Origin: a virus
Lineage: Duplodnaviria; Heunggongvirae; Uroviricota; Caudoviricetes
Strand: one strand, 5' to 3'
Virus record (IMG/VR): IMGVR_UViG_2711768073_000019
Length of the DNA stretch: 17,278 nucleotides
In this document: in pieces, positions 2,012-17,278 of the stretch
Position numbering within the stretch: the first letter of the stretch is position 1
How the letters are laid out: each line of letters opens with the position of its first letter
Program-made: the position numbers and the translations under genes
The notes under the pieces: model-generated
Databases searched by the model: none
What the model was told of the DNA's origin: nothing
Seen by the model: only the letters and a program-made list of their open reading frames with translations

Positions 2012-2152
2012 TTACTGCTTACACTGTAAGAACGCCGCAAACTCCGCTCCCCAGAAGCTCATCCGTATTTCACACAGCGAACCGTGTAGCATCCAGATGA
2101 TGAGGATTACCGTCACGCAGAACGTGATGGCTGTAAGCGATTTTTGCGACAT
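2012..2152 (-). CDS. Hok/Gef-family type I toxin, 46 aa (not in the supplied ORF track because it is under 60 aa)
   Basis: Manual translation of the minus strand: MSQKSLTAITFCVTVILIIWMLHGSLCEIRMSFWGAEFAAFLQCKQ. Single N-terminal TM helix followed by the Hok signature SLCEIR and an EFAAF(L) tail (compare Hok KSLCEIR...EVAAFMAYE). RBS aaaGGAGcaagcgctATG. Followed 3' by a perfect stem-loop gacggggg-attgct-cccccgtc (1981-2002), then the terminator. Confidence 0.8.
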   Translation of the reverse strand: MSQKSLTAITFCVTVILIIWMLHGSLCEIRMSFWGAEFAAFLQCKQ

Positions 2153-2342: not shown

Positions 2343-2603
2343 TTAATTCTGAGGTAAAGGCAAACTCATCTGATTGTTTCCCCTGTGTGAAGCTGGCAGC
2401 TCATGCCACGGGATACCTTCCGAAGAGTGAACGCCGGAGGCGTGTTTTGATGTGAATTTATGGAAAGCTTCCAGTGTTGAGAAGCATACGCCGCATTCCA
2501 GGTTGTTACACTGGTAATACTTTTGCCGCACAGTGTTTGAATCGTTTTCCGGACGACTGGTGCGGATTCGGGCAGATGCGCCACAAAGCGGACAACGGAA
2601 CAT
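2343..2603 (-). CDS. ogr: Ogr/Delta-family zinc-finger late-gene transcriptional activator (P2-like), 86 aa
   Basis: MFRCPLCGASARIRTSRPENDSNTVRQKYYQCNNLECGVCF aligns with P2 Ogr MFHCPLCQHAAHARTSRY...ERYHQCQNVNCSATF, including the four Cys ligands (C4, C7, C32, C37). Strong RBS aaGGGAGGtcgctATG. The C-terminus is longer than the P2 Ogr as recalled (72 aa). Confidence 0.8.
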   Translation of the reverse strand: MFRCPLCGASARIRTSRPENDSNTVRQKYYQCNNLECGVCFSTLEAFHKFTSKHASGVHSSEGIPWHELPASHRGNNQMSLPLPQN

Positions 2604-2892
2604 AGCGACCTCCCTTAACGTGGTGCTGCCGCTATTCTAAGTTGTAATAGCTCAGACTCCAACTGACAGTTTGCGCAGCCAGAATACAATCAAACCTAGC
2701 GGTACGCTTTGTGCGAAGAGCGGAAGTTCGCAACTCCAACAACTTTGATAACCTCCGCATAAATGGAAATCGGTTGCTTACATAAGTTTATTGGCTGAGG
2801 TGCATATCGGGAAGCAAGCGGGCAGTGCCATCTTATCTGTTACAATCCCGAAATGATTGTTCAGCCCGCTTTTTCTAACAGCATGTAAACAT

Positions 2893-4032
2893 TCAGCTGC
2901 AAATTTCGTTGTTGCTGCATGTTATCTCTTCAAGTGCAGCGGCGTTATAATCAACGGAATGATCAACCTGTGATGTAGGTCTGCCAAAAAATTCAACCCC
3001 TGACATAATCATGTTGCCGATATTCTCTCGCTGTTTATCACTGAGCCTGTCCCACCACTCAGGGGATGAATATGTATTTTCGGCCTTTGTGAAGAAAAAA
3101 TACAGAAGGGTATTGAACATCCTGTTAGCTGGGATCTTAATTAGTGTCCGTATAAAACGTCTGATAATTGTTGAAGTTCTCAGCCAACTGAACACTACAT
3201 ATCCCTTACCTCCGCAGGAAAAAGCATTGAAACATACTTGTTCCGCCGACACTGTAAGATCGCTCAAATCCTGAATTTTGGTCCCATCGAAATCCCTCTC
3301 CGGTGAAAGAATTGACGAAACTACAATTGGTAAAGGCTCTGCAAAAGTGAAGATAACACTTTCAATTTCTGAAAATTGCCTGCTAAGTAGGATGCGGTCG
3401 AGGCTAGTTTTAAGATTATTTAATTCAATTATTGCTGCATTTAAGCCACTTTGGTGCTGGTCGATTAATTTCTGAATATAATACTGTTCAACTTGTAGCT
3501 TTCCTTTATCGGCATTTTTAGCAAAATCAGAAGATAGCACTCCCCCTTCTTTGGCATAAATTTCTTTAGACAATGAACGAAACATTAAGGCAAAGCACTG
3601 CTCGTCCGTGCCTGTAAATTTTTCGTTCTCTAGGCATGAAAATAAGATTCTGTCATGAACTGCACAAAATCCTGTAAAAGTGGATGCCTGATTGATACCG
3701 ATCTTCTCGGGAAGCCATTTTCCGTTGTTTCTCATCAGGCTTGCTAAGTTCATTATCACCCCCATGACGTGATTGCTGGAGTCGGCGATCGCCTTAAGGC
3801 TACTGCTCTTAGATATCGTATGCGCCTGAACGATGCGTTTATCACAATCTTCGTGCATGGATGCTGGCGCATAACATGCCTTTCTCTGCGAGAGAGACTT
3901 TGAAAATTTCAGTGCCTCGGCTTTGGATACCGGAGTTTCACGATCTCGACCAAGATGGCACTTTTTATACTTAAGTCCTGAATTACACCAGCACTTATCA
4001 TTTCTTCCTAATTTCACTTTATTGTTTCCCAC
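2893..4032 (-). CDS. Hypothetical cargo protein, 379 aa, with N-terminal SEC-C-type zinc-ribbon motif; unknown function
   Basis: Long uninterrupted minus-strand ORF in an AT-rich block between gpD and ogr. Residues 9-26 GRNDKCWCNSGLKYKKCH match the SEC-C metal-binding motif. The rest resembles no family I recognise. The annotated start is GTG without a clear SD; an alternative GTG at 4017 follows GGGAAA. Confidence 0.6.
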   Translation of the reverse strand: MGNNKVKLGRNDKCWCNSGLKYKKCHLGRDRETPVSKAEALKFSKSLSQRKACYAPASMHEDCDKRIVQAHTISKSSSLKAIADSSNHVMGVIMNLASLMRNNGKWLPEKIGINQASTFTGFCAVHDRILFSCLENEKFTGTDEQCFALMFRSLSKEIYAKEGGVLSSDFAKNADKGKLQVEQYYIQKLIDQHQSGLNAAIIELNNLKTSLDRILLSRQFSEIESVIFTFAEPLPIVVSSILSPERDFDGTKIQDLSDLTVSAEQVCFNAFSCGGKGYVVFSWLRTSTIIRRFIRTLIKIPANRMFNTLLYFFFTKAENTYSSPEWWDRLSDKQRENIGNMIMSGVEFFGRPTSQVDHSVDYNAAALEEITCSNNEICS

Positions 4033-4431
4033 GAAATTAATGTTCTATAACAAAAACACTTATCGAAAATAGGTGTAATTTATCACTCCGGCAGCTAAAA
4101 GATCATCTGCCACATGCACGATAATAAATCTTCCTTGCGTCATCATCTCCCTCTGTTCTTAAATCAGGTGTTGCCTGTGTGCGGAGGATTCGCGAAGTAC
4201 AGTAGCCGAAATGCATGATCTTACCCATCAATGGTGAGCACGCGATAATAAGTGAGTCCCTAATTGACCACTCATGGCAATACAACTTCAACCAGCATTC
4301 ATGACCACTATCCGTGGATTAACTGTTACATAAGCAACACCTGCTCTAGGCACAAAGCGGGCTGCCAGATTGGGTCTGGCACTGTGCTGTGAGTGTGTCA
4401 GTTCTGGTTTGAGTCAATACATCTAATTTGC

Positions 4432-5532
4432 TCATTCTGTTTCTGCTATCCATTCCGGGATTTTTGCTTCAAGCTCAAGCTGTGTGGTAAAGCCGCTGTT
4501 ATCAATGGTGTGCTCGGCTTTTGCAATAATCCAGTCCTGATTATCGATGTCACTTTTGAAGCCTGTCACCGTGCCATGCATTTCGGGATAGAGTTCTGCG
4601 CGTCCACGCGCCAGCGTGATGGAGAATGATGCGGCTCCGCGTTGTAGCTGCTGCCACTTTGCCGCCGCTGCACGTCTTGCTGCCTGCTCGTTCTGATAAG
4701 TCTTGCGTAACACAAACACGTTGCCTTCCGCACCTTCCATATAGTCACCTTCACGGCTGCTGCTTTTCTCCTTTTTCGGTTTGCGGCGTTTCACGCTGAC
4801 TTTTTTCTTTTTCCCGTAATTAAGATCAAGCCAGTAAGCACGTACCCCCGTATACGCTTCGCGGTCAGCAATGCGGAACTGATGGCGATCGCCACTGCTG
4901 CGCGTGATGGCGAACGATGGCAACGGCTGGCCCTGTGCGTTCACGCCACCGCCTGGCATGATGAATAACAGATTACTGCTTTTTACCGTAGTGATTGCGC
5001 CCAGCATTTCCGCCATGCGCGTAAGGAAGGACATGTCGCTTTCTTCGGTCTGGTCGGCGTGGTCGATTTCAATATCCATCAGCATTTCGCTGATTTGTGG
5101 TTTCAGACCGTACCGATGAGCGATGGCGGATACCACGCGCTCAACGGTCACATCATGCCAGGACACCTCACGTTTAACGTTAAATTCATCCCGAAAATCT
5201 GCGCTTCTGGCTGAAACAGTCAGCCTGTCCGGCGGTCCTTCGTGAGCGATTTCATCAACAATGTAAGTGCCTTTTTCTGTCAGCGGTTCTCCTTTCCAGC
5301 CAATGAGAACCGTCAGGTGCGCGCCCCGTGGCGGTAGCTGCAACTGACCATCTGCATCATCCAGCATGATGGTGAGCTGGTCCGCCTCAAATCCCCGGTT
5401 GTCGGTCAGTGACAGGCTCATCAGGCGCTCTGCCACGCCGGACAGTGTTTCCCCCTCCGCGAGAATATCAAAATCCGGCATTTTCACGGGGTCTGTGCTC
5501 TGACTGAGCAATTGCATGGTGGTATCGGTCAT
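4432..5532 (-). CDS. D: P2-like tail protein D (Phage_GPD / late control gene D family), copy 1, 366 aa
   Basis: RBS AGGGAGGgaacagATG at 5532 (track ORF 4432-5664 has 44 junk N-terminal codons running into IS2). Typical gpD motifs: SLSLTDNRGFEADQLTIMLDDADGQL, VSWHDVTVERVVSAIAHRYGLKP, K/R-rich internal linker. Ends ...EWIAETE. Confidence 0.9.
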   Translation of the reverse strand: MTDTTMQLLSQSTDPVKMPDFDILAEGETLSGVAERLMSLSLTDNRGFEADQLTIMLDDADGQLQLPPRGAHLTVLIGWKGEPLTEKGTYIVDEIAHEGPPDRLTVSARSADFRDEFNVKREVSWHDVTVERVVSAIAHRYGLKPQISEMLMDIEIDHADQTEESDMSFLTRMAEMLGAITTVKSSNLLFIMPGGGVNAQGQPLPSFAITRSSGDRHQFRIADREAYTGVRAYWLDLNYGKKKKVSVKRRKPKKEKSSSREGDYMEGAEGNVFVLRKTYQNEQAARRAAAAKWQQLQRGAASFSITLARGRAELYPEMHGTVTGFKSDIDNQDWIIAKAEHTIDNSGFTTQLELEAKIPEWIAETE

Positions 5533-5648
5533 CTGTTCCCTCCCTGTGCGGCATGGTCGCATGTGCGTGCATAGGGGGTTACTGCTTTTTGTTGTCGCCG
5601 TGGCGGGAGAACGGCGCAGGGGTGAGATTACGCGNCCTGGATTTGCCC

Positions 5649-6554
5649 CTATATTTCCAGACACCTGTTATCACTTACCCCATCACTGGCCCACTGCCGC
5701 AGATATTCCCGTGGCGAGCGATAACCCAGCGCACTATGCGGATGCCATTCGTTATAATGCTCGAACGCCTCTGCAAGGTTCTTTGCTGCCGTTAACCCGT
5801 CTGGTTTGGGCATGATACTTATGTAGTCACGCTTTATCGTTTTCACGAAGCTCTCTGCTATTCCGTTACTCTCCGGACTCCGCACTGCCGTGTTCTTCGG
5901 TTCAAGTCCCAACATCCTGGCGAACTGACGTGTTTCATTCGCCCGGTAGCATGAACCATTATCCGTCAGCCACTCCACTGGAGACGCCGGAAGCTCGCTG
6001 CCAAAGCGGCGTTCCACTGCTCCCAGCATGACGTCCTGTACTGTTTCACTGTCGAAGCCACCCGTTGTGACCGCCCAGTGCAGTGCCTCACGGTCACAGC
6101 AGTCCAGCGCGAACGTGACCCGCAGTTTTTCTCCGTTATCACAGCGGAACTCAAACCCGTCAGAGCACCATCGCTGATTACTTTCTTTCACAGCCACTCT
6201 GCCGGTATGTGCCCGTTTCGATGGCGGTACAGCGGGTTTTCGCTCAAGCAACAGCGCATTCTGGCGCATGATCCGGTAAACACGTTTGGCATTGATCGCA
6301 GGCATACCATCAAGTTCTGTTTGTCTGCGAAGCAGCGCCCATACCCGACGATAACCATATGTGGGTAGCTCTCCGATAACATGGTGTATACGGCGAAGCA
6401 CATCCGTATCATCCGTGTGACGGCTGCGGCGGCCGTCCTTCCAGTCATCGGCTCGTCTGAGAATGACGTGCAACTGCGCACGCGACACCCGGAGACAACG
6501 GCTGACGAAGCTTACTCCCCATCCCCGGGCAATAAGGGCGCGTGCGCTATCCAC
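5649..6554 (-). CDS. insD: IS2 transposase OrfB (InsD, DDE integrase domain), 301 aa; expressed as OrfAB fusion by -1 frameshift
   Basis: [34 protein letters not shown]... is IS3-family OrfB with an rve integrase core. Overlaps insC in the -1 frame. Confidence 0.93.
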
Positions 6555-6877
6555 TTTTTTGCTCGCCCATATTCAACGGCTTCTTTAAGGAGTTCATTTT
6601 CCATCGTTTTTTTGCCGAGCAGACGCTGGAGTTCTTTAATCTGCTTCATGGCGGCAGCAAGTTCAGAGGCAGGAACGACCTGTTCTCCGGCAGCCACAGC
6701 AGTAAGACTTCCCTCCTGGTATTGCTTACGCCAGAGAAATAGCTGGCTGGCTGCCACACCATGTTGCCGGGCAACAAGGGAGACCGTCATTCCCGGTTCA
6801 AAGCTCTGCTGAACGATAGCGATCTTTTCCTGTGTAGTACGCCGTCTGCGTTTCTCCGGCCCTAAGACATCAATCAT
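6512..6877 (-). CDS. insC: IS2 transposase OrfA (InsC), 121 aa
   Basis: [40 protein letters not shown]... is identical in character to IS2 InsC. Start set at ATG 6877 (GGAGAACAGATG), not the upstream track start. Confidence 0.93.
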
Positions 6878-6968
6878 CTGTTCTCCAATGACTAGTCTAA
6901 AAACTAGTATTAAGACTATCACTTATTTAAGTGATATTGGTTGTCTGGAGATTCAGGGGGCCAGTCTA

Positions 6969-8019
6969 CGACCTAAATCCTGAGCTCATCCCCGATATTA
7001 TTTCGGCTATTAAAAAACTATCAACGCCACCTTACAAAATAGAGATACAGGGTGGGGAGCCTCTCTTGCGGTTTGATTTAATTCAGAGCATCTATGATCA
7101 ATGTGCTGAAACGCTGGGAAGAACCAATTTTGAGATGGTGGTGGCATCAAGTCTGTCTGTCTTGAATGAGGATATGATTGAATGGTCGAGAGACCGGAAC
7201 ATAACGTTCTCTGTGTCGCTTGATGGTGAGGAAGTTGTTCACAACAGTAATCGAATTCTTGGTCGTGGGCTTGCGTATAGTAGAACAGTGTCAGGGGTAG
7301 AGGCTATCAAACACTCTTTAGGTGCTGGCCGCGTTGCAACGGTTACTACAGTTACTAAAGAGCTTATCAGACGTCCTGAATCGATTGTTCAGGCTCACTT
7401 GTCTCTTGGTCTCAAGGACATGTTTATCCGACCTGTTAGTCCCTATGGGTTTGCACAAAAAGCTTCTTTCACCTTTTCTATGGACGAATACTTCAGCTTC
7501 TATGCCTCGTTGATAGATGAAATCCTTAAGATTAATAATGAAGGGATAAGGGTTGTGGAACATTCGGCCTCCATTCATCTGAAAAGGATCTTCAATCCCG
7601 GTTTTAGTGGTTATGCGGATTTAAAGTCTCCAAGTGGAGTCGTGCTTAACAGTATTCTTTTCAATTATGACGGTCGAGTATATGGTAGCGATGAGAGCCG
7701 TATGTTGCAGAAGGTGAATCCTGAAACGGAGTTCAGTGCGGGTGAAGTTAAGACGCTATCATTTTCTGATAGTCCTTACTATAACGCAGTATTGAGTTCA
7801 TCGTTCAATTTTGCTCTGCCAGGTTGTGATACATGTGCATATCAACCATTTTGTGGTTCAGATCCATGCCAGAACATAAGTGTACAGGGTGAGCCTGTCG
7901 GTGATAGGAGTCGTTCAACGTTTTGTCAATATCACAAGGGGATGTTCAGGTATCTGATGAACTGCATCTCAGAGGGTGGTTCGAAGGCTGAGATGCTAAA
8001 AGGATGGGCATATGTCTGA
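6969..8019 (+). pseudogene. 5'-truncated radical SAM / SPASM-domain enzyme (HxsB-like maturase), interrupted by IS2
   Basis: Reading frame continues out of the IS2 end. Retained sequence begins just before the SAM-binding GGEPLL motif but lacks the upstream CxxxCxxC triad, so roughly 60-100 N-terminal residues are missing. C-terminal Cys-rich auxiliary-cluster motif ALPGCDTCAYQPFCGSDPC. Low GC. The B versus C assignment is tentative. Confidence 0.65.
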
Positions 8020-9124
8020 GGTTATCAGGAACGATATCTTTCATTTTGCTTCTACAGAGAACGTGCCCACGGGGTTCTATCGGTTATGCAAACAAAAACC
8101 AGTGAACCCTTTATTCTTTTTGCCCAATTTGCTAGTAGTTGCTGAAGGCAATAATGATGCCATTCCACCATGCTTTGATTTCTCTGTTATTAGCACTGAA
8201 TTATTTGAGTCAATTGAAGATGGAGATATTGGGATAATCAACAATGGCAATATGATACGCGTTATTCTGTCACGCAAAGCCAATCATAATACTGTCTTAG
8301 TTACGGAACGCTGCAATAACTTGTGTCTGTTTTGTTCGCAGCCACCAAAGAAAATAAATGATGACTGGCTACTTACCCAATCAGCTCTTGCTATAGCTTC
8401 ATTTGGCTTGAACGGAGTTGTTGGGGTCAGCGGTGGTGAACCTTTGCTATATGGGGATGACTTCCTTCACTTCATTGATTTTATCATCGAGAATTCACCA
8501 GATACTGCTTTACATGTTTTAACAAACGGACGCAAATTTGCTGATATCAACTTTACACAGGAAATGGCAAAGCGAAGCAAAAAGATCAAAATCACCTTTG
8601 GTATCCCGCTCTACTCATCAAGACCACTTGTGCATGATCATCTGGTAGGGAGTGATGGCGCATTTAATGAAACGGTTAAAGGGTTAATCAATGCAGGAAA
8701 CTTGGGGATTAATATCGAACTTAGAGTTATTCCTACACTGGCTAACTATACCGAATTGGATGATATTGTAGAATTCGCTGGCCGTGTGTTCTCCAACATC
8801 AATCAGATTTCCCTTATGGGGTTGGAGCCTATCGGTTGGGCACGAAAAAACTGGTCCACCATCTTCATTGATCACAGTAGTTATAGTGAGAAAATAATCT
8901 CTGCCATAGACGCTGCATACAGGTCAGGCATACCTCTGACAATTTTTAATTATCCTTTGTGTTATCTTCCTGAAAGGGCTAGGGAGCTTGCTGTTCAGTC
9001 GATCTCTGATTGGAAAAATTACTATCCAAAAGAATGTGATGAATGTACTCAGAAGCCTTCCTGTGCTGGCTATTTCAGTTCCTCAAAAGGCCGTTTTCAT
9101 CAATCACCGAGACCAATTTTATGA
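8012..9124 (+). CDS. Radical SAM enzyme (HxsC-like maturase), 370 aa
   Basis: CxxxCxxC motif ERCNNLCLFCSQP at about residues 99-111, GGEPLLY SAM-binding motif, C-terminal Cys cluster ECDECTQKPSC. Start overlaps the upstream stop (ATGtcTGA), indicating translational coupling. Low GC. Confidence 0.75.
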   Translation: MSEVIRNDIFHFASTENVPTGFYRLCKQKPVNPLFFLPNLLVVAEGNNDAIPPCFDFSVISTELFESIEDGDIGIINNGNMIRVILSRKANHNTVLVTERCNNLCLFCSQPPKKINDDWLLTQSALAIASFGLNGVVGVSGGEPLLYGDDFLHFIDFIIENSPDTALHVLTNGRKFADINFTQEMAKRSKKIKITFGIPLYSSRPLVHDHLVGSDGAFNETVKGLINAGNLGINIELRVIPTLANYTELDDIVEFAGRVFSNINQISLMGLEPIGWARKNWSTIFIDHSSYSEKIISAIDAAYRSGIPLTIFNYPLCYLPERARELAVQSISDWKNYYPKECDECTQKPSCAGYFSSSKGRFHQSPRPIL

Positions 9125-9756
9125 AAAAGTTTAATTTTGCTGCTCTACTTCCGGGATTTTTGGCTCTCAACAATTCTGTATGGGCAAGCGATTCATCTAC
9201 AGGAGCGAGTGATTTACCTGGTATGACTCTTAATGAGCATGATTTAGTGATAGCTCCACTTAACACGGAAGTCCCATTTTATATCGCAGGGCATCGAAGC
9301 CATAGCTCTCATAGGAGCCATAGCTCTCATAGATCCTCATCAGGTGGTGGATACTATGGTGGAAGTACCCCCTATTATCCAAAAACATACAGCTCACCAA
9401 GTTCATCTGGTTCTTCAAGTTCAGGTGCAAGTTCCTCATCGTCCTCTTCCTCGGTGCGTGCACTTCGTTCTAACGATAATAATAGAACCACTAACACGAG
9501 TTCTGTTGGAACTTCAGAGGTTAACCGTACGAGTAATGGGCTTGCTTCTGATGCAGAGAAACGTAAGCGATTGATTATGCGAGTTCAGTTCGCATTGCTG
9601 GACAGGGGATTTTATAACGGAAATATTGACGGCATAATGGGGCCATCCACAAGGCTGTCTGTGAAAAATTACCGCATTGCGAATGGATTACCGATTCCTG
9701 CAACTGAAACACTCGACACTCAATTGTTAAATTCTTTGAATATATTAGCTCGCTAA
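9121..9756 (+). CDS. hxsA: His-Xaa-Ser repeat precursor-like protein with signal peptide and C-terminal peptidoglycan-binding-like domain (HxsA-like), 211 aa
   Basis: ATGA overlap with the preceding rSAM gene. Signal peptide MKKFNFAALLPGFLALNNSVWA; (H-R-S)(H-S-S)(H-R-S)(H-S-S)(H-R-S) repeats; Ser/Gly low-complexity linker; C-terminal LLDRGFYNGNIDGIMGPSTRLSVKNYRIANGLP resembles a PG_binding_1 fold. Matches my recollection of the TIGRFAM His-Xaa-Ser system description. Confidence 0.65.
   Translation: MKKFNFAALLPGFLALNNSVWASDSSTGASDLPGMTLNEHDLVIAPLNTEVPFYIAGHRSHSSHRSHSSHRSSSGGGYYGGSTPYYPKTYSSPSSSGSSSSGASSSSSSSSVRALRSNDNNRTTNTSSVGTSEVNRTSNGLASDAEKRKRLIMRVQFALLDRGFYNGNIDGIMGPSTRLSVKNYRIANGLPIPATETLDTQLLNSLNILAR
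9298..9333 (+). repeat. 2 x 18-bp near-perfect tandem direct repeat inside hxsA encoding the HSSHRS repeats
   Basis: agccatagctctcatagg (9298-9315) and agccatagctctcataga (9316-9333), 17/18 identical. Confidence 0.85.
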
Positions 9757-9920
9757 ATCTCAGTGAGGTATAAATAAAAAGCAATAAATTATATTAGTCG
9801 CGCGTCCATTATTAGTGGGTAAGATCAAGGACCGTCTGCTCTGTGTTAGGGGCAGATGGTCAGATAAGACTGTGCCGTTTAGCCCGCTAGTACGTGTCTG
9901 GACTAATACATTTAAGAGTC

Positions 9921-11024
9921 TCATTCTGCTATCCATTCCGGGATTTTTGCCTCAAGCTCAAGCTGCGTGGTAAAGCCGCTGTTATCAATGGTGTGCTCGG
10001 CTTTCGCAATAATCCAGTCCTGATTATCAATCTCGCTTTTAAAGCCTGTTACCGTGCCATGCATTTCGGGGTAGAGTTCTGCGCGTCCACGTGCCAGTGT
10101 GATGGAGAACGCTGCGGCTCCGCGTTGTAGCTGCTGCCACTTTGCCGCCGCTGCGCGTCTTGCTGCCTGCTCGTTCTGATAAGTCTTGCGTAACACAAAC
10201 ACATTGCCTTCCGCGCCTTCCATATAATCACCTTCACGGCTGCTGCTTTTCTCCTTTTTGGGTTTTGGCGGTTTACGGCGTTTCACGCTGACTTTTTTCT
10301 TTTTCCCGTAATTAAGATCAAGCCAGTAGGCGCGTACCCCCGTATACGCCTCGCGGTCAGCAATACGGAACTGATGGCGATCGCCGCTGCTGCGTGTAAT
10401 GGCGAACGAGGGCAACGGCTGGCCCTGTGCGTTCACGCCACCACCTGGCATGATGAATAACAGATTGCCGCTTTTTACTGTGGTGATTGCGCCCAGCATT
10501 TCCGCCATGCGCGTAAGGAAGGACATGTCGCTTTCTTCGGTCTGGTCGGCGTGGTCGATTTCGATATCCATCAGCATTTCGCTGATTTGCGGTTTCAGAC
10601 CGTACCGATGAGCGATGGCGGATACCACACGCTCAACGGTCACATCATGCCAGGACACCTCACGTTTAACGTTAAATTCATCCCGAAAATCTGCGCTTCT
10701 GGCTGAAACAGTCAGCCTGTCCGGCGGTCCTTCGTGTGCAATTTCATCAACAATGTAAGTGCCTTTTTCTGTCAGCGGTTCTCCTTTCCAGCCAATGAGA
10801 ACCGTCAGGTGCGCGCCCCGTGGCGGTAGCTGCAACTGACCATCTGCATCATCCAGCATGATGGTGAGCTGGTCCGCCTCAAATCCCCGGTTGTCGGTCA
10901 GTGACAGGCTCATCAGGCGCTCTGCCACGCCTGACAGCGTTTTACCCTCCGCGAGAATATCAAAATCCGGCATTTTCACGGGGTCTGTGCCCTGACTGAG
11001 CAATTGCATGGTGGTGTCGGTCAT
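9921..11024 (-). CDS. D: P2-like tail protein D, copy 2 (diverged allele), 367 aa
   Basis: Same family and RBS as copy 1 but distinct sequence: SQGTDP vs SQSTDP, AEGKTLSG vs AEGETLSG, KRRKPPKPKKEK vs KRRKPKKEK, ends ...EWIAE without the TE. The 3' flank differs completely from copy 1. Confidence 0.9.
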   Translation of the reverse strand: MTDTTMQLLSQGTDPVKMPDFDILAEGKTLSGVAERLMSLSLTDNRGFEADQLTIMLDDADGQLQLPPRGAHLTVLIGWKGEPLTEKGTYIVDEIAHEGPPDRLTVSARSADFRDEFNVKREVSWHDVTVERVVSAIAHRYGLKPQISEMLMDIEIDHADQTEESDMSFLTRMAEMLGAITTVKSGNLLFIMPGGGVNAQGQPLPSFAITRSSGDRHQFRIADREAYTGVRAYWLDLNYGKKKKVSVKRRKPPKPKKEKSSSREGDYMEGAEGNVFVLRKTYQNEQAARRAAAAKWQQLQRGAAAFSITLARGRAELYPEMHGTVTGFKSEIDNQDWIIAKAEHTIDNSGFTTQLELEAKIPEWIAE

Positions 11025-11181
11025 CTGTTCCCTCCCTGTGCGGCATGGTCGCATGTGCGTGCGGAGGGGGTTACTGCTTTTTGTTGTCGCCGGGTCGGGA
11101 GAACGGCGCAGGGGTGAGATTACGCGCGTGGTGGGTGATGATTGTTGCCGAATCATTTAACGGATACAAGGGGCTGAAGCT

Positions 11182-12348
11182 ATGAGTGAAACTCGTTTTC
11201 ATGGTGCCCGTGTTACGGAAAATACCGACCTGGTAACAGCGATTAACGATGTTGATTCCAGCGTTATCGGTATCGTGGCAACGGCGGATGATGCGGACGC
11301 GAAGCTGTTCCCGCTGAACAAGCCCACACTGCTGACCCGCGTCAATGACGTGCTGGGAAAATGCGGGACAACGGGGACGCTTTATCGTGCGCTTAAGGCC
11401 ATTGCAGACCAGGTGAGCACAAAGGTGATCGTCGTTCGCGTGGCTGAACACAAAGAAGAAGACGGAAAGACGCAGGATCAACTGGTTATCGGTGGTTCTG
11501 AATCTGACGGCAGCTATACGGGGATGTATGCGCTGCTTGTTGCAGAGCAGGATGAAAGCATCGGATACCGTCCGCGTATTCTGGCCGCGCCGGAGCTGGA
11601 CACGGAGGCGGTAACAAAATCCCTGTGCGTGATTGCGGGTAAACTGCGCGCGTTTGTGTATGCCTCATGTCACGGCTGTAACACGATGGCTGAGGCGATT
11701 ACCTACCGCCAGAAATTCAACGAACGTGAGGTGATGCTCTTATGGCCGGACTTCATCGCCTACAACCCGAAAAGTGGCAAAAACGAAACGTTCCCCGCGC
11801 CTGCCTATGCGTGTGGCCTTCGTGCGTACATTGACCATGAGCAGGGATGGCACAAATCACTGTCCAACGTTCCGGTTAAAAATGTGCTGGGGATGTCGAG
11901 GCATGTGTTCTGGTCGTTGCAGGCCGAAGACAGCGATGCCAACAGCCTCAACAACAAAGAAATCACGACCATTATTCGTCGCAACGGGTTCCGCTTCTGG
12001 GGCAACCGCACACCGGAAACGAACGCCTACATCTTTGAGGTGTATACCCGAACCGCACAGGTGCTGGCTGATTCAATTGCAGAAGCGCAGTTTGAAACCA
12101 TCGACAGTCCACTGACGCCTGCGAACGTGAAGGATGTTATCAGTGCCATCAGGGCAAAACTGGATTCACTGGTTACTGCCGGGAAACTGATTGGCGCGGA
12201 GTGCTGGTATGACGTGGTGGATAACAGCACCACGGATTTACGTCAGGGACGTGTGCGTATTCGCTACAAATATACGCCCGTTCCGCCACTGGAAGACATG
12301 GAGCTTTACCAGACGTTTACTGATGAATACTTTGAACCCGCATTTGCG
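11182..12348 (+). CDS. FI: P2-like tail sheath protein FI, 3' end cut by an ambiguous base (last 5 codons missing)
   Basis: MSETRFHGARV...WPDFIAYNP...GFRFWGNRT...YKYTPVPPLEDMELYQTFTDEYFEPAFA shows conserved sheath motifs as in P2 gpFI. Frame is broken at n 12349, where the sequence jumps into the antisense interior of gpD. Confidence 0.88.
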
Positions 12349-12349
12349 N

Positions 12350-12998
12350 GGCGATCGCCACTGCTGCGCGTGATGGCGAACGATGGCAACGGCTGGCCCT
12401 GTGCGTTCACGCCACCGCCTGGCATGATGAATAACAGATTACTGCTTTTTACCGTAGTGATTGCGCCCAGCATTTCCGCCATGCGCGTAAGGAAGGACAT
12501 GTCGCTTTCTTCGGTCTGGTCGGCGTGGTCGATTTCAATATCCATCAGCATTTCGCTGATTTGTGGTTTCAGACCGTACCGATGAGCGATGGCGGATACC
12601 ACACGCTCAACGGTCACATCATGCCAGGACACCTCACGTTTAACGTTAAATTCATCCCGAAAATCTGCGCTTCTGGCTGAAACAGTCAGCCTGTCCGGCG
12701 GTCCTTCGTGAGCGATTTCATCAACAATGTAAGTGCCTTTTTCTGTCAGCGGTTCTCCTTTCCAGCCAATGAGAACCGTCAGGTGCGCGCCCCGTGGCGG
12801 TAGCTGCAACTGACCATCTGCATCATCCAGCATGATGGTGAGCTGGTCCGCCTCAAATCCCCGGTTGTCGGTCAGTGACAGGCTCATCAGGCGCTCTGCC
12901 ACGCCGGACAGTGTTTCCCCCTCCGCGAGAATATCAAAATCCGGCATTTTCACGGGGTCTGTGCTCTGACTGAGCAATTGCATGGTGGTATCGGTCAT
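12350..12998 (-). pseudogene. gpD fragment (N-terminal about 216 codons, copy-1-type allele)
   Basis: Identical in character to 4885-5532. Bounded by n at 12349. Confidence 0.7.
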
Positions 12999-13155
12999 CT
13001 GTTCCCTCCCTGTGCGGCATGGTCGCATGTGCGTGCATAGGGGGTTACTGCTTTTTGTTGTCGCCGTGGCGGGAGAACGGCGCAGGGGTGAGATTACGCG
13101 CGTGGTGGGTGATGATTGTTGCCGAATCATTTAACGGATACAAGGGGCTGAAGCT

Positions 13156-13897
13156 ATGAGTGAAACTCGTTTTCATGGTGCCCGTGTTACGGAAAGTACC
13201 GACCTGGTAACAGCGATTAATGATGTTGATTCCAGTGTTATCGGTATCGTGGCAACGGCGGATGATGCGGACGCGGAGCTGTTCCCGCTGAACAAGCCCA
13301 CACTGCTGACCCGCGTCAATGACGTGCTGGGAAAATGCGGGACTACGGGGACGCTTTATCGTGCGCTTAAGGCTATTGCAGACCAGGTGAGCACAAAAGT
13401 GATCGTCGTTCGCGTGGCTGAACACAAAGAAGAAGGCGGTAAGACGCAGGATCAACTGGTTATCGGTGGTTCTGAATCTGACGGCAGCTATACGGGGATG
13501 TATGCGCTGCTTGTTGCAGAGCAGGATGAAAGCATCGGATACCGTCCGCGTATTCTGGCCGCGCCGGAGCTGGACACGGAGGCGGTGACAAAATCCCTGT
13601 GCGTGATTGCGGGTAAACTGCGCGCGTTTGTGTATGCCTCATGTCATGACTGTAACACGATGGCTGAGGCAATTACCTACCGCCAGAAATTCAACGAACG
13701 TGAGGTGATGCTCTTATGGCCGGACTTCATCGCCTACAACCCGAAAAGTGGCAAAAACGAAACGTTCCCCGCGCCTGCCTATGCGTGCGGCCTTCGTGCG
13801 TACATTGACCATGAGCAGGGCTGGCACAAATCGCTGTCCAACGTTCCTGTTAAAAATGTGCTGGGGATGTCCAGGCATGTTTTCTGGTCGTTGCAGG
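13156..13897 (+). pseudogene. FI fragment (N-terminal about 247 codons, variant allele: ESTDLV, ADAELF, EEGGKTQ, SCHDCNT)
   Basis: Runs into the N-run at 13898-13908. Confidence 0.7.
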
Positions 13898-13908
13898 NNN
13901 NNNNNNNN
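13898..13908. other. Assembly gap (11 N)
   Basis: Run of n. Sequence after the gap restarts at the gpD start region (tcggtcatctgttccctccc). Confidence 0.99.
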
Positions 13909-14073
13909 TCGGTCATCTGTTCCCTCCCTGTGCGGCATGGTCGCATGTGCGTGCGGAGGGGGTTACTGCTTTTTGTTGTCGCCGGGTCGGGAGAACGGCG
14001 CAGGGGTGAGATTACGCGCGTGGTGGGTGATGATTGTTGCCGAATCATTTAACGGATACAAGGGGCTGAAGCT

Positions 14074-14779
14074 ATGAGTGAAACTCGTTTTCATGGTGCC
14101 CGTGTTACGGAAAATACCGACCTGGTAACAGCGATTAACGATGTTGATTCCAGCGTTATCGGTATCGTGGCAACGGCGGATGATGCGGACGCGAAGCTGT
14201 TCCCGCTGAACAAGCCCACACTGCTGACCCGCGTCAATGACGTGCTGGGAAAATGCGGGACAACGGGGACGCTTTATCGTGCGCTTAAGGCCATTGCAGA
14301 CCAGGTGAGCACAAAGGTGATCGTCGTTCGCGTGGCTGAACACAAAGAAGAAGACGGAAAGACGCAGGATCAACTGGTTATCGGTGGTTCTGAATCTGAC
14401 GGCAGCTATACGGGGATGTATGCGCTGCTTGTTGCAGAGCAGGATGAAAGCATCGGATACCGTCCGCGTATTCTGGCCGCGCCGGAGCTGGACACGGAGG
14501 CGGTGACAAAATCCCTGTGCGTGATTGCGGGTAAACTGCGCGCGTTTGTGTATGCCTCATGTCATGACTGTAACACGATGGCTGAGGCAATTACCTACCG
14601 CCAGAAATTCAACGAACGTGAGGTGATGCTCTTATGGCCGGACTTCATCGCCTACAACCCGAAAAGTGGCAAAAACGAAACGTTCCCCGCGCCTGCCTAT
14701 GCGTGCGGCCTTCGTGCGTACATTGACCATGAGCAGGGCTGGCACAAATCGCTGTCCAACGTTCCTGTTAAAAATGTGC
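14074..14779 (+). pseudogene. FI fragment (N-terminal about 235 codons, mosaic allele: ENTDLV and AKLF but SCHDCNT)
   Basis: Runs into the N-run at 14780-14816. Confidence 0.7.
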
Positions 14780-14816
14780 NNNNNNNNNNNNNNNNNNNNN
14801 NNNNNNNNNNNNNNNN
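14780..14816. other. Assembly gap (37 N)
   Basis: Run of n. Sequence resumes inside FI at about codon 77. Confidence 0.99.
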
Positions 14817-15772
14817 AGGTGAGCACAAAGGTGATCGTCGTTCGCGTGGCTGAACACAAAGAAGAAGACGGAAAGACGCAGGATCAACTGGTTATCGGTG
14901 GTTCTGAATCTGACGGCAGCTATACGGGGATGTATGCGCTGCTTGTTGCAGAGCAGGATGAAAGCATCGGATACCGTCCGCGTATTCTGGCCGCGCCGGA
15001 GCTGGACACGGAGGCGGTAACAAAATCCCTGTGCGTGATTGCGGGTAAACTGCGCGCGTTTGTGTATGCCTCATGTCACGGCTGTAACACGATGGCTGAG
15101 GCGATTACCTACCGCCAGAAATTCAACGAACGTGAGGTGATGCTCTTATGGCCGGACTTCATCGCCTACAACCCGAAAAGTGGCAAAAACGAAACGTTCC
15201 CCGCGCCTGCCTATGCGTGCGGCCTTCGTGCGTACATTGACCATGAGCAGGGCTGGCACAAATCGCTGTCCAACGTTCCTGTTAAAAATGTGCTGGGGAT
15301 GTCCAGGCATGTTTTCTGGTCGTTGCAGGCCGAAGACAGTGATGCCAACAGCCTCAACAACAAAGAAATCACGACCATTATTCGTCGCAACGGGTTCCGC
15401 TTCTGGGGCAACCGCACACCGGAAACGAACGCCTACATCTTTGAGGTGTATACCCGAACCGCACAGGTGCTGGCTGATTCAATTGCGGAAGCGCAGTTTG
15501 AAACCATCGACAGTCCACTGACGCCTGCGAACGTGAAGGATGTTATCAGTGCCATCAGGGCAAAACTGGATTCGCTGGTTACTGCCGGGAAACTGATTGG
15601 CGCGGAGTGCTGGTATGACGTGGTGGATAACAGCACCACGGATTTACGTCAGGGGCGTGTGCGTATTCGCTACAAATATACGCCCGTTCCGCCACTGGAA
15701 GACATGGAGCTTTACCAGACGTTTACTGATGAATACTTTGAACCCGCATTTGCGGTGCTGGGAGGTGCCTGA
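14817..15772 (+). pseudogene. FI fragment (C-terminal about 318 codons to native stop)
   Basis: Ends ...EPAFAVLGGA-TGA at 15770-15772. Followed by tggctgt, then n at 15780. Confidence 0.7.
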
Positions 15773-15780
15773 TGGCTGTN

Positions 15781-16766
15781 TTTATCGTGCGCTTAAGGCC
15801 ATTGCAGACCAGGTGAGCACAAAGGTGATCGTCGTTCGCGTGGCTGAACACAAAGAAGAAGACGGAAAGACGCAGGATCAACTGGTTATCGGTGGTTCTG
15901 AATCTGACGGCAGCTATACGGGGATGTATGCGCTGCTTGTTGCAGAGCAGGATGAAAGCATCGGATACCGTCCGCGTATTCTGGCCGCGCCGGAGCTGGA
16001 CACGGAGGCGGTAACAAAATCCCTGTGCGTGATTGCGGGTAAACTGCGCGCGTTTGTGTATGCCTCATGTCACGGCTGTAACACGATGGCTGAGGCGATT
16101 ACCTACCGCCAGAAATTCAACGAACGTGAGGTGATGCTCTTATGGCCGGACTTCATCGCCTACAACCCGAAAAGTGGCAAAAACGAAACGTTCCCCGCGC
16201 CTGCCTATGCGTGTGGCCTTCGTGCGTACATTGACCATGAGCAGGGATGGCACAAATCACTGTCCAACGTTCCGGTTAAAAATGTGCTGGGGATGTCGAG
16301 GCATGTGTTCTGGTCGTTGCAGGCCGAAGACAGCGATGCCAACAGCCTCAACAACAAAGAAATCACGACCATTATTCGTCGCAACGGGTTCCGCTTCTGG
16401 GGCAACCGCACACCGGAAACGAACGCCTACATCTTTGAGGTGTATACCCGAACCGCACAGGTGCTGGCTGATTCAATTGCAGAAGCGCAGTTTGAAACCA
16501 TCGACAGTCCACTGACGCCTGCGAACGTGAAGGATGTTATCAGTGCCATCAGGGCAAAACTGGATTCACTGGTTACTGCCGGGAAACTGATTGGCGCGGA
16601 GTGCTGGTATGACGTGGTGGATAACAGCACCACGGATTTACGTCAGGGACGTGTGCGTATTCGCTACAAATATACGCCCGTTCCGCCACTGGAAGACATG
16701 GAGCTTTACCAGACGTTTACTGATGAATACTTTGAACCCGCATTTGCGGTGCTGGGAGGTGCCTGA
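15781..16766 (+). pseudogene. FI fragment (C-terminal, from about codon 67, to native stop)
   Basis: Begins LYRALKAIADQ... directly after n 15780. Stop TGA at 16764-16766 overlaps the FII ATG. Confidence 0.7.
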
Positions 16767-17278
16767 TGGCTGTGCCAAAACATCTTCGCTTTTTTACGCT
16801 GTTTGTGGATGGTGAAAACGAAGTGGGTAAGGTGACGTCCGTCACTCTGCCCAAACTGACGCGCAAAACCGACAGCTACCGGGGGGGCGGCATGATGGGT
16901 GCGGTAAGTATTGATCTCGGTCTGGACGACTCCGCGCTTGATGCGAGCTTTGTCATGGGGGGCGCAGTTCGTGAGCTGTTCCTTAAGTATGGCGGCACGA
17001 TTGACGGCACGCTGCTGCGTTTTGCGGGTGAATACTACACCGATGCAGAAAGCGACCTGTATGAAGTCGAAATGCGCGGACGTGTGACGGAAATTGATAT
17101 GGGGGAAGCCAAACAGGGCGAAGCCACATCACACACTTACGCCATTAAAAACACCTACTACAAGCTGAGTGTTAACGATCGCCCGTTGTGGGAGATTGAC
17201 CTGCTGAACTTCATTTACCGGAAGGACGGCAAGGACATTGTGCCCGATCGCATCCGTTCCGCGCTTGGGCTTGGCTGA
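16766..17278 (+). CDS. FII: P2-like tail tube protein FII, 170 aa, complete
   Basis: MAVPKHLRFFTLFVDGENEVGKVTSVTLPKLTRKTDSYRGGGMMGAVSIDLGLDD... parallels P2 gpFII (...NLFIDGVSYAGRITEVTPPKLSRKMEEYRAGGM...). TGATG start/stop overlap with FI. Stop TGA at 17276-17278. Confidence 0.9.
   Translation: MAVPKHLRFFTLFVDGENEVGKVTSVTLPKLTRKTDSYRGGGMMGAVSIDLGLDDSALDASFVMGGAVRELFLKYGGTIDGTLLRFAGEYYTDAESDLYEVEMRGRVTEIDMGEAKQGEATSHTYAIKNTYYKLSVNDRPLWEIDLLNFIYRKDGKDIVPDRIRSALGLG

What the first reader, a model, noticed from the sequence alone, without database searches (positions are those of the whole stretch)
2893..4431. Low-GC 379-aa SEC-C-motif protein inserted between P2-like tail gene D and ogr: candidate phage-borne accessory or defence gene
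In the canonical P2 late region D is followed almost directly by ogr. Here about 1.5 kb of AT-rich DNA with a single long ORF sits between gpD copy 1 (stop 4432) and the Ogr-like gene (start 2603), all on the same strand. The protein opens with a SEC-C-type zinc ribbon (GRNDKCWCNSGLKYKKCH); the remaining roughly 340 residues match nothing I recognise. Its compositional contrast with the flanking phage genes, its poor translation signals, and its position inside a prophage late operon are the moron signature often seen for superinfection-exclusion or anti-phage genes. The 400-bp untranslated stretch upstream (4033-4431) could hold an independent promoter.
Basis: partly seen in the sequence, partly recalled or inferred. 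Interest (0 to 1): 0.8.

Follow-up and report, generated by a model that had tools for sequence, protein, structure and literature searches.

The report
Rugutis-like anti-phage gene in P2 prophage
The gene wedged between tail gene D and ogr of this E. coli P2-like prophage is a distant relative of Rugutis, a single-gene anti-phage system proven so far only in Lactococcus, so it is most likely a prophage-carried defence gene, though this has not been tested in E. coli.

Summary
A 379-aa ORF (2893-4032, minus strand) with an N-terminal SEC-C zinc motif lies in a 1.78-kb low-GC insert (2645-4421). The insert sits exactly where related prophages join D to ogr with a 42-bp spacer.

The protein is not an orphan. 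It aligns over its full length with Rugutis, the 359-aa SEC-C protein of Lactococcus plasmid pUCCL633A (BLASTP E 2e-37; hhalign 99.96%). Rugutis is a validated single-gene, abortive-infection-like system. Phage c2 escapes it through mutations in the terminase large subunit, and that protein also triggers its toxicity.

The family is large (7562 cluster representatives). It is confidently modelled (pLDDT 88) yet has no solved structural relative. It travels alone on prophages, plasmids and defence islands.

RefSeq's name "YecA family protein" rests only on the 20-residue motif and is wrong.

The D-ogr junction is a variable cargo slot. At least nine other cargoes occupy it, including a His-Xaa-Ser system elsewhere in this window.

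Verdict: a new, distant enterobacterial member of a known but mechanistically unsolved defence family. The guess of an independent upstream promoter is not confirmed. Effector chemistry is unknown and activity in E. coli is untested.

The parts
2645..4421 (-). Cargo module of about 1.78 kb inserted at the D-ogr junction of a P2-like prophage. GC is 0.423 against 0.536 for D.
   Evidence: blastn against the empty junction L011 and seven other cargo variants puts the breakpoints at 2644-2711 and 4345-4445. Most of the module, flanks included, recurs in a non-P2 island of another E. coli, L004, whose upstream leader lacks about 86 nt.
2893..4032 (-). 379-aa Rugutis-like protein. RefSeq WP_001317900.1 calls it 'YecA family protein', which is a misnomer.
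   Evidence: ORF. BLASTP against Rugutis of pUCCL633A gives E 2e-37 and 26% identity over aa 5-347. hhalign gives 99.96% over 344 columns. Purifying selection is shown. The AF2 model has pLDDT 88.3 and pTM 0.87.
3952..4005 (-). SEC-C zinc-binding motif, aa 10-27 (GRNDKCWCNSGLKYKKCH). The putative ligands are C14, C16, C25 and H26.
   Evidence: Pfam PF02810, E 2e-08. The motif matches the SecA metal-binding-domain peptides 1ozb and 1sx0. C14, C16 and C25 are invariant across the superfamily, and H26 is replaced by Cys in Rugutis.
3628..3876 (-). Conserved core of the Rugutis domain, aa 53-135. Superfamily-invariant residues are C53, C63, A70-H71, G112, A116, F119, G121-F122-C123, H126-D127, F131 and E135.
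   Evidence: Alignments A1 and A2. The secondary structure runs strand 67-71, strands 108-112 and 118-123, then helix 124-135. The core is retained in a branch lacking SEC-C on Klebsiella plasmid pKPN5. A second zinc site and an active site here are inferences, not shown.
3382..3606 (-). Long helical hairpin, aa 143-217. It contains the invariant R152 and K161.
3004..3366 (-). C-terminal alpha/beta domain, aa 223-343. N319 is invariant across the superfamily. W283 and P324 are nearly invariant across it. E318 is invariant only in the gammaproteobacterial alignment A1.
   Evidence: AF2 secondary structure and alignments A1 and A2.
4033..4421 (-). Non-coding leader of about 390 bp that travels with the gene.
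   Evidence: It aligns with the upstream DNA of homologues in Salmonella, Citrobacter, Pantoea and E. coli islands. It holds no conserved ORF, no Rfam match and only a weak consensus structure. Its identity equals that of four-fold degenerate sites, so there is no extra constraint. No consensus promoter was found.
2805..2892 (-). 3' tail of the cassette, about 85-90 nt after the stop codon, shared by homologous cassettes.
   Evidence: Alignment A7.
2634..2662 (-). Promoter-like site for ogr (TTGGAG-17 nt-TAGAAT), just downstream of the insert.
   Evidence: Read directly from the sequence. The -10 lies in DNA shared with all junction variants, and the -35 is shared with most cargo-bearing variants. 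Function is inferred.
2343..2603 (-). ogr/Delta-like zinc-finger late-gene activator.
   Evidence: RefSeq annotation on identical DNA. NCBIfam PRK09678, E 1.6e-11.
4432..5634 (-). P2 gpD-like tail gene ('copy 1'). The RefSeq start corresponds to 5532. The sequence is joined to the next contig by an N at 5635.
2012..2152 (-). hok/gef-family toxin gene downstream of ogr, conserved in this prophage lineage.
   Evidence: RefSeq annotation transferred from L001. The same arrangement is seen in L011-L018 and L108.

Best explanation
The ORF is a distant enterobacterial member of the Rugutis family, and the P2-like prophage carries it as stand-alone cargo at the D-ogr junction.

Proposed working (inferred by homology). 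It is a single-polypeptide sensor-effector expressed in the lysogen. When another phage infects, the protein detects a late-stage phage component. [quoted passage not shown] Detection switches on a toxic activity that stops the infected cell before progeny are released, which is abortive-infection-like protection of the clonal population and of the prophage.

Anatomy. An N-terminal SEC-C zinc knuckle (aa 10-27) acts as an accessory interaction module, since one branch of the family lacks it. Behind it lies a conserved core carrying C53, C63, C123 and H126. These probably form a second structural zinc site. The core also carries the invariant polar residues H71, D127, E135, R152, K161 and N319. 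These probably form a catalytic or ligand site. A long helical hairpin and a C-terminal alpha/beta domain complete the protein.

Shown here: the homology, the domain layout, the mobility, purifying selection and the variable slot. Inferred: defence activity in E. coli, the trigger, the second zinc site and the effector chemistry.
For: 1. Homology to Rugutis.
- It is full-length: BLASTP E 2e-37 over aa 5-347 and hhalign 99.96%, E 3.8e-39, over 344 columns.
- The subject is the only SEC-C protein found on pUCCL633A. It is 359 aa, as in Table 1 of PMC11381338.

2. What is known of Rugutis.
- It is a single gene that acts after DNA injection and behaves like an abortive-infection system (PMC11381338).
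- Escape mutants of phage c2 map to the terminase large subunit ATPase domain, and c2 terminase is toxic only in cells expressing Rugutis (PMC12184496).

4. It travels alone, with unrelated neighbours in every context.
- P2 prophage.
- Salmonella integrase/AlpA island carrying a PARIS-like AAA_15 plus DUF4435 pair.
- E. coli MobA island.
- Citrobacter island with RES-HEPN, HEPN_Swt1 and DUF4238.
- End of a Klebsiella aerogenes prophage.
- Vibrio plasmid beside an Abi protein and an ATPase plus helicase pair.
- Enterococcus plasmid beside AbiH.
- Listeria contig between a Gabija-like pair and a nucleotidyltransferase plus membrane-protein pair.
- Klebsiella plasmid pKPN5 beside pifC and a P-loop NTPase.

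5. The D-ogr junction is a variable slot. Among 1200 E. coli genomes carrying the junction, 720 have an empty one. Alternative cargoes include PIN_12, DUF3800, a PRTase pair, a HEPN-like protein, three unknowns and hxsDBCA.

6. The gene is intact, under purifying selection and 100% identical in about 80 EHEC-type genomes.
Against: - Identity to Rugutis is only 26%, so function and trigger may have diverged.
- No experiment exists for any proteobacterial member.
- No promoter for expression in the lysogen was found. The gene lies on the same strand directly downstream of D, so it might be transcribed only late in P2's own lytic cycle, which fits a lysogen-protecting role poorly.
- A terminase-triggered suicide gene inside a phage that has its own terminase needs an unexplained self/non-self distinction.
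- In distant phyla many neighbours are housekeeping genes, so the association with defence genes is not uniform.
- PADLOC-DB 2.0 has no model for it.
- In the PNAS study the mutated c2 terminase remained as toxic as wild type when co-expressed with Rugutis, so even the trigger model for Rugutis is incomplete.
- In a few strains an IS element interrupts the gene.
Confidence: 0.68

Rival explanations
1. A late-expressed phage accessory gene serving the P2-like phage's own lytic cycle. It could counter host defences, remodel the host, or exclude satellites and competitors during lytic growth. It would be read through from the D transcript rather than expressed in the lysogen.
For: It has the same strand as D and ogr and lies directly after the D stop codon. 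No independent consensus promoter was found in the leader. In P2, ogr is also known to be read through from the late tail operon (my own knowledge of P2 biology).
Against: The same cassette, with the same leader, sits in non-phage islands and plasmids that have no late operon upstream. The homologue Rugutis works from a plasmid in uninfected cells (PMC11381338). Other cargoes in the same slot lie on the opposite strand, namely DUF3800, hxsDBCA and three unknowns. The slot therefore does not depend on read-through.
Confidence: 0.12
2. A selfish stabilisation or addiction element: a toxic enzyme kept in check by some cis element. It would favour retention of the cassette or prophage, and any anti-phage effect would be incidental.
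For: It sits 0.7 kb from a hok/gef toxin gene of the same prophage. [quoted passage not shown] The cassette moves as a unit with about 390 bp of non-coding leader.
Against: No antitoxin-like conserved ORF or structured RNA was found in the leader. The leader evolves at the neutral rate. The gene is not linked to any constant partner gene.
Confidence: 0.08
3. A housekeeping-type SEC-C protein of the YecA/YchJ kind, acting with SecB, SecA or the ribosome, as the RefSeq name 'YecA family protein' suggests.
For: It has a good SEC-C motif, and RefSeq uses that name.
Against: Similarity to YecA-type models is confined to the motif. NCBIfam PRK10396 scores 17.9 bits against a cutoff of 149 and covers only profile positions 197-220. 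No UPF0149 domain is present. The motif is N-terminal here and C-terminal in YecA. The genuine yecA gene lies intact beside the same prophage. The gene is present in only 92 of 5426 E. coli genomes and always on mobile DNA.
Confidence: 0.03
4. A decaying or functionless hitch-hiker: horizontally acquired DNA with an open frame that has no current role.
For: Low GC, a GTG start without a Shine-Dalgarno sequence, and IS insertions in a few strains.
Against: Codon-position asymmetry shows clear purifying selection. All superfamily-invariant residues are retained. The frame length is the same 379 codons in five lineages. There are thousands of family representatives.
Confidence: 0.04

Closest known systems
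Rugutis, the single-gene anti-phage system of Lactococcus plasmid pUCCL633A (pUCCL633_059 / WP_137016746.1; Grafakou et al., NAR 2024, PMC11381338; PNAS 2025, PMC12184496)
   Same: It has an N-terminal SEC-C motif and a size of about 360-380 aa. It is alignable end to end (E 2e-37; hhalign 99.96%). It shares the invariant core motifs C..C..AH, G..A..F.GFC..HD...F...E, R, K and N319 of the EN motif (E318 is Asp in three of the twelve A2 sequences). It is a stand-alone gene on a mobile element. Its fold is confidently predicted but has no relative in the PDB.
   Different: Identity is only 26%. The host is a Gram-negative enterobacterium. The carrier is a P2-like prophage slot rather than a plasmid. 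The fourth SEC-C ligand is His here and Cys in Rugutis. Anti-phage activity, the abortive-infection phenotype and the terminase trigger are untested for this protein.
SEC-C metal-binding domain proteins: SecA C-terminal tail, YecA (UPF0149) and YchJ
   Same: They share the 18-20-residue CxCxSGx8C(H/C) zinc knuckle (Pfam PF02810, E 2e-08). In SecA this module is known to bind SecB and ribosomes (my own knowledge), which suggests a docking role.
   Different: Everything outside the motif differs. The motif is at the opposite end of the protein. There is no UPF0149, SecA or YchJ domain. A branch of the Rugutis family lacks the motif altogether.
Accessory-gene hotspots of P2-like phages: old/tin between gpA and the portal gene, and Z/fun within the tail genes (Rousset et al. 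2022, PMC9122126)
   Same: Variable, lower-GC cargo lies between conserved core genes. The cargo is rich in nuclease, HEPN, PIN and PRTase-type proteins and turns over between near-identical prophages.
   Different: This is a different junction, between D and ogr. The literature I could read mentions it only in passing. [quoted passage not shown] A 2026 preprint (10.64898/2026.02.27.708500) mentions minor hotspots 'within the late genes'. Most of its cargoes have no PADLOC model.
Avs (STAND NTPase) systems that sense phage terminase large subunit
   Same: This is a functional analogy only. Avs systems are single-protein sensors of the terminase large subunit that trigger cell death. The Rugutis authors draw this comparison.
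   Different: There is no sequence or fold relationship, no NTPase domain and no recognisable effector domain. The protein is roughly a third to a fifth of the size (my own knowledge of Avs sizes).

Membership tests
Rugutis family (single-gene anti-phage system) | Full-length sequence homology to pUCCL633_059 | tested here: met
   BLASTP E 2e-37 with 26% identity over aa 5-347 of 379. hhalign probability 99.96%, E 3.8e-39, over 344 columns. The subject is identified as Rugutis by plasmid name, the 359-aa length and the SEC-C annotation. The paper's supplement was not available to confirm the locus tag.
Rugutis family (single-gene anti-phage system) | N-terminal SEC-C motif followed by a domain with no recognisable Pfam family | tested here: met
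   PF02810 matches aa 10-27 and nothing else matches in any of 42 members.
Rugutis family (single-gene anti-phage system) | Confidently predicted fold with no significant match among solved structures | tested here: met
Rugutis family (single-gene anti-phage system) | Stand-alone gene with no conserved partner gene | tested here: met
   Neighbours differ in every context examined.
Rugutis family (single-gene anti-phage system) | Confers phage resistance after DNA injection with an abortive-infection-like phenotype | not testable with these tools
   Shown only for the lactococcal protein (PMC11381338).
Rugutis family (single-gene anti-phage system) | Escape through, and toxicity triggered by, the phage terminase large subunit | not testable with these tools
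   Shown only for phage c2 and lactococcal Rugutis (PMC12184496).
YecA family (UPF0149 protein with C-terminal SEC-C), the RefSeq name | UPF0149 domain, and a whole-protein match to the YecA model above its cutoff | tested here: not met
   NCBIfam PRK10396 scores 17.9 bits against a cutoff of 149, and only profile positions 197-220 of 221 align. Pfam finds no UPF0149 domain. The genuine yecA gene lies elsewhere in the same genome.
P2-type moron in a variable hotspot | Insert between conserved core genes that are adjacent in related phages, with deviating composition and alternative cargoes at the same site | tested here: met
   The empty junction has a 42-bp spacer and occurs in 720 genomes. 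Breakpoints coincide within about 100 bp across eight variants. GC is 0.42 against 0.54. At least nine other cargo types occupy the site.
P2-type moron in a variable hotspot | Own promoter and terminator giving expression in the lysogen | tested here: inconclusive
   There is no consensus sigma-70 site or terminator on the gene's strand within the insert, and none is conserved among homologues. The method is only a consensus scan.
DUF4238 (single-protein anti-T7 system of the P2 old/tin hotspot) | Profile similarity to a DUF4238 protein | tested here: not met
   hhalign probability is 0.6% against the DUF4238 protein of L019. There is no Pfam hit.

The most novel reading that the evidence does not exclude
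The Rugutis domain may be a new enzyme fold. In this reading it is built round a second Cys3-His zinc site and senses phage DNA-packaging machinery. The D-ogr junction of P2-like prophages may also be a largely unmined third defence hotspot. Its cargoes are the Rugutis-like gene, PIN_12, DUF3800, a PRTase pair, a HEPN-like protein, three unknowns and the enigmatic His-Xaa-Ser radical-SAM system. Most or all of them could be anti-phage systems absent from current catalogues. That would also give the long-unexplained Hxs system a testable function.
Probability: 0.3. Interest if true: 0.75.

Novelty: new member of a known kind. Interest (0 to 1): 0.45.

Why it matters
- It links an anti-phage system known only from dairy lactococci to a gene fixed in the P2-like prophages of major EHEC lineages (O26, O103, O111 and some O157). 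It also shows that the family spans many phyla.
- It corrects a misleading RefSeq name carried by hundreds of records.
- It offers a genetically tractable E. coli/coliphage model for a mechanism that is still unknown: a new fold, an unknown effector and an incompletely supported terminase trigger.
- It raises a sharp question. How does a phage that packages its own DNA carry a system that may be triggered by a terminase?
- The D-ogr slot, with about ten interchangeable cargoes that current catalogues mostly do not recognise, is a compact and easily mined source of candidate defence genes.

Tried and rejected
- **Profile libraries.** Pfam, NCBIfam, PHROGs and PADLOC match only the SEC-C motif.
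- **DUF4238.** My guess that the AHTxSKSS and FCxxHD motifs point to DUF4238 was rejected (hhalign probability 0.6%).
- **HNH or His-Me-finger nuclease.** The strand-strand-helix at aa 108-135 suggested this reading. No fold match supports it, and N114 is not conserved outside the gammaproteobacterial group. I could not measure residue distances because model coordinates are not exposed. I therefore kept it only as 'enzyme-like core, chemistry unknown'.
- **The 390-bp leader.** It holds no conserved ORF and no Rfam family. Its consensus structure is weak, with a positive covariation term. Its conservation does not exceed the synonymous rate. No conserved sigma-70 promoter was found.
- **Sequenced phages.** tblastn finds the gene only in two unverified Listeria contigs, which look like defence-island DNA.
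- **Genome-contig scan.** SEC-C-only matches swamped it, and it yielded only about ten full-length loci. Their neighbourhoods are mixed.
- **Literature.** Searches for the accession or for SEC-C defence proteins in E. coli found nothing beyond the Rugutis papers.
Full report
**1. The observation**

The window carries a 379-codon ORF on the minus strand at 2893-4032, starting with GTG. Residues 10-27 (GRNDKCWCNSGLKYKKCH) match the Pfam SEC-C motif at E 2e-08. They also match the solved SecA metal-binding peptides.

Nothing else in the protein matches Pfam, NCBIfam, PHROGs or PADLOC. The weak hits in those libraries all cover only the motif. The same is true of all 42 family members I aligned.

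The ORF lies between ogr (2343-2603) and a P2 gpD-like gene whose stop codon is at 4432-4434. RefSeq names both genes on 100%-identical DNA. GC is 0.41 for the ORF against 0.54 for D.

The window starts in pgsA, followed by tRNA-Gly, tRNA-Cys and tRNA-Leu. In the complete genome of E. coli O103 RM8385 the same DNA is one end of a complete-looking P2-like prophage of about 37 kb. That prophage is integrated between leuZ and, by coincidence, the genuine yecA gene.

**2. It is an insert in a variable slot**

In related prophages the D stop codon and the ogr start codon are 42 bp apart (L011). blastn against that empty junction puts the insert at window 2645-4421, about 1.78 kb. Seven other junction variants have breakpoints within about 100 bp of these.

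Among 5426 complete E. coli genomes, 1200 carry this D/ogr junction and 720 have at least one empty copy. Eighty genomes carry this cargo at 99% identity or more. These are mostly O26, O103 and O111 EHEC, plus a few O157 strains. Twelve genomes carry an 87%-identical variant elsewhere in the chromosome. In a few strains an IS element splits the gene.

Other cargoes found at the same junction:
- a PIN_12 protein;
- a DUF3800 protein;
- a ComF-like PRTase plus a small partner;
- a protein with a weak HEPN (RiboL-PSP) match;
- three proteins with no match at all;
- the four-gene His-Xaa-Ser system hxsDBCA.

Some of these lie on the opposite strand. Only the PRTase touches a PADLOC model.

The literature I could read describes the old/tin and Z/fun hotspots in detail (PMC9122126). 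It mentions this region only in passing. [quoted passage not shown] Another mentions minor hotspots 'within the late genes' (10.64898/2026.02.27.708500).

**3. The gene is real and selected**

Four homologues of 85-86% identity come from a Salmonella island, an E. coli island, a Citrobacter island and a Pantoea island. All have exactly 379 codons from the same conserved GTG. Codon positions 1 and 2 are 0.91-0.98 identical, against 0.75-0.91 for position 3.

**4. What the protein is**

The family is large:
- 296 hits in the word-indexed search, most of them about 370 aa and all annotated with SEC-C only;
- 7562 50%-identity cluster representatives at E<=0.001 and 1476 at E<=1e-30 in the exhaustive profile search;
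- full-length relatives in Pseudomonas, Sphingomonas, Chloroflexi, Gemmatimonadota, Acidobacteria, Rhizobiaceae, Vibrio, Enterococcus, Listeria and Lactococcus.

The plasmid is in PLSDB as NZ_PP589699.1 (pUCCL633A). It encodes one 359-aa SEC-C protein, WP_137016746.1. The window protein aligns with it from residue 5 to 347 (BLASTP E 2e-37, 26% identity). The family profile matches it at 99.96% probability over 344 columns.

A 12-sequence alignment spanning Gammaproteobacteria, Alphaproteobacteria and Firmicutes leaves these residues invariant:
- the SEC-C cysteines C14, C16 and C25;
- C53, C63, A70-H71, G112, A116, F119, G121-F122-C123, H126-D127, F131, E135, R152, K161 and N319.

A 380-aa protein of Klebsiella plasmid pKPN5 has the whole core but no SEC-C motif (hhalign 99.6%). 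The motif is therefore an accessory module.

**5. What is known about Rugutis**

It protects Lactococcus against skunaviruses and phage c2. It acts after DNA injection. It protects at low MOI and gives collapse or stasis at high MOI, which is an abortive-infection-like phenotype (PMC11381338).

[quoted passage not shown] Expressing c2 terminase reduces viability only in Rugutis-expressing cells. However, the mutated terminase remained equally toxic, so the trigger model is incomplete (PMC12184496). No effector activity has been identified.

**6. Genomic company**

The gene has no constant partner, but it often sits among defence genes:

| Context | Neighbouring genes |
|---|---|
| Salmonella integrase/AlpA/DUF927 island | PARIS-like AAA_15 plus DUF4435 pair |
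| Citrobacter island | RES-HEPN, HEPN_Swt1, DUF4238 |
| Vibrio plasmid | Abi protein; ATPase plus helicase pair |
| Enterococcus plasmid | AbiH |
| Listeria contig | Gabija-like pair; nucleotidyltransferase plus membrane protein |
| Klebsiella plasmid pKPN5 | pifC; P-loop NTPase |
| Klebsiella aerogenes | end of a prophage |

I also scanned 65 neighbours of eight distant relatives. They include strong PADLOC hits (PD-Lambda-1, PDC-M02A/B, PDC-S02, a MkoA-like helicase-nuclease), an Mrr nuclease, integrases and transposases. They also include ordinary metabolic genes, so the association is real but not universal.

**7. Most likely mechanism**

Shown:
- homology to a validated defence protein;
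- stand-alone mobile cargo;
- a variable prophage slot;
- purifying selection;
- a conserved Cys/His and polar core.

Inferred: the protein is made in the lysogen. It senses a late component of an invading phage, by analogy the terminase large subunit. It then switches on a toxic activity that aborts the infection.

The spacing of the ligands is suggestive. C123-x-x-H126 sits at the start of helix 124-135, and C53 and C63 lie upstream. This suggests a second structural zinc site. H71, D127, E135, R152, K161 and N319 are candidates for an active site.

The SEC-C knuckle may dock the protein on a partner such as SecB or the ribosome, as it does in SecA. That rests on my own knowledge and is speculative.

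**8. Weak points**

- I found no promoter. The consensus scan has no minus-strand site within the insert, and a relaxed scan finds none shared by homologues.
- The 390-bp leader does travel with the gene into five different contexts. It has no conserved ORF, no Rfam match and only a weak consensus fold. Its identity (0.74-0.88) equals that of four-fold degenerate sites (0.73-0.89), so it is co-inherited rather than demonstrably constrained.
- The gene follows D on the same strand, so late read-through expression is possible. That supports a rival reading as a lytic-cycle accessory. Against that rival, the same cassette occurs in non-phage islands, and other cargoes in the slot face the other way.
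- A terminase-sensing suicide gene in a phage with its own terminase needs an explanation.

**9. Names and novelty**

'YecA family protein' is a motif-level misnomer. The YecA model scores 17.9 bits against a cutoff of 149, and on the motif only. There is no UPF0149 domain. The true yecA gene is present beside the prophage. A relationship to DUF4238 was tested and rejected.

The finding is a new, distant, enterobacterial and prophage-borne member of a known defence family whose mechanism is still open. It is worth a bench test. It is not a new kind of system.

Noticed in passing
window 5649-9756, next to D copy 2 at 9921-11156: A second D-ogr cargo lies inside the same window. It consists of IS2 (5649-6922), a 5'-truncated hxsB (6931-8019), hxsC (8012-9124) and hxsA (9043-9756). 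This is the His-Xaa-Ser radical-SAM system, whose function is unknown. In ETEC1730 the intact hxsDBCA sits between ogr and D of a P2-like prophage at ihfA-pheT, and 89 E. coli genomes carry it. Its place in the same slot as a defence homologue suggests testing it for anti-phage activity.
   Followed up: partly
window 5635, 12349, 13898-13908, 14780-14816, 15780; repeats across 9921-17278: The window is a scaffolded draft. Single N's and short N runs join pieces. Several near-identical copies or fragments of D (9921-11156, 12306-13130) and of the sheath gene FI follow one another (11182-12585, 13156-14052, 14074-14853, 14666-15772, 15597-16766). These are most likely assembly artefacts from two or more P2-like prophages in one strain, not a real tandem array.
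   Followed up: partly
L001 22133-28966 (CP028112); also L011-L014 and L108: In this prophage lineage D is transcribed divergently from the sheath gene FI. The FI-FII-E-E'-T-U block, together with a serine O-acetyltransferase gene in the Z/fun position, is inverted relative to the canonical P2 order. D, the cargo, ogr and hok then form a separate leftward unit. The iLund4u preprint notes DNA invertases and inversions at the Z/fun locus.
   Followed up: no
window 2012-2152 (-): A hok/gef-family toxin gene lies just downstream of ogr. It is conserved in every prophage of this lineage examined, at three different integration sites.
   Followed up: no
L025 14573-15238 (CP028112 1238572-1239237): The genuine yecA gene (UPF0149 family) flanks the integrase end of the same prophage. 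The genome therefore holds the true YecA about 35 kb from the cargo gene that RefSeq calls 'YecA family protein'.
   Followed up: yes
L012, L013, L014, L015-L018 (D-ogr junctions of other E. coli): Seven other cargo variants occupy the D-ogr slot: PIN_12, DUF3800, a ComF-like PRTase plus a 185-aa partner, a weak HEPN RiboL-PSP match, and three proteins with no family. Apart from a PsyrT-like match for the PRTase, none has a PADLOC model.
   Followed up: partly
L002 (OR846759, 'Listeria phage LM 4-11-1', UNVERIFIED_ORG): This record is deposited as a phage, but it looks like a defence island. It holds a UvrD-like helicase, a GajA/GajB-like pair, the Rugutis homologue, a nucleotidyltransferase with a membrane protein, and type VII secretion/LXG-like genes. 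No phage structural genes lie in the 12.8 kb examined.
   Followed up: no
CP077567 / CP077491 (O111:H11) and CFSAN027346: In a few strains the Rugutis-like gene is split by an IS element. RefSeq annotates an IS4-like ISVsa5 transposase in the two O111:H11 records. The break falls near nucleotide 489-497 of the plus-strand query, about window 3380-3390, so the gene is occasionally inactivated.
   Followed up: partly
L004 (E. coli CP057555) about 9800-11450: The 87%-identical copy in a MobA/H-NS/AlpA island shares the gene and also the flanking non-coding DNA on both sides, including sequence that in the window overlaps the ogr promoter region. This suggests that the whole 1.8-kb module moved between a P2-like prophage and another element.
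   Followed up: partly
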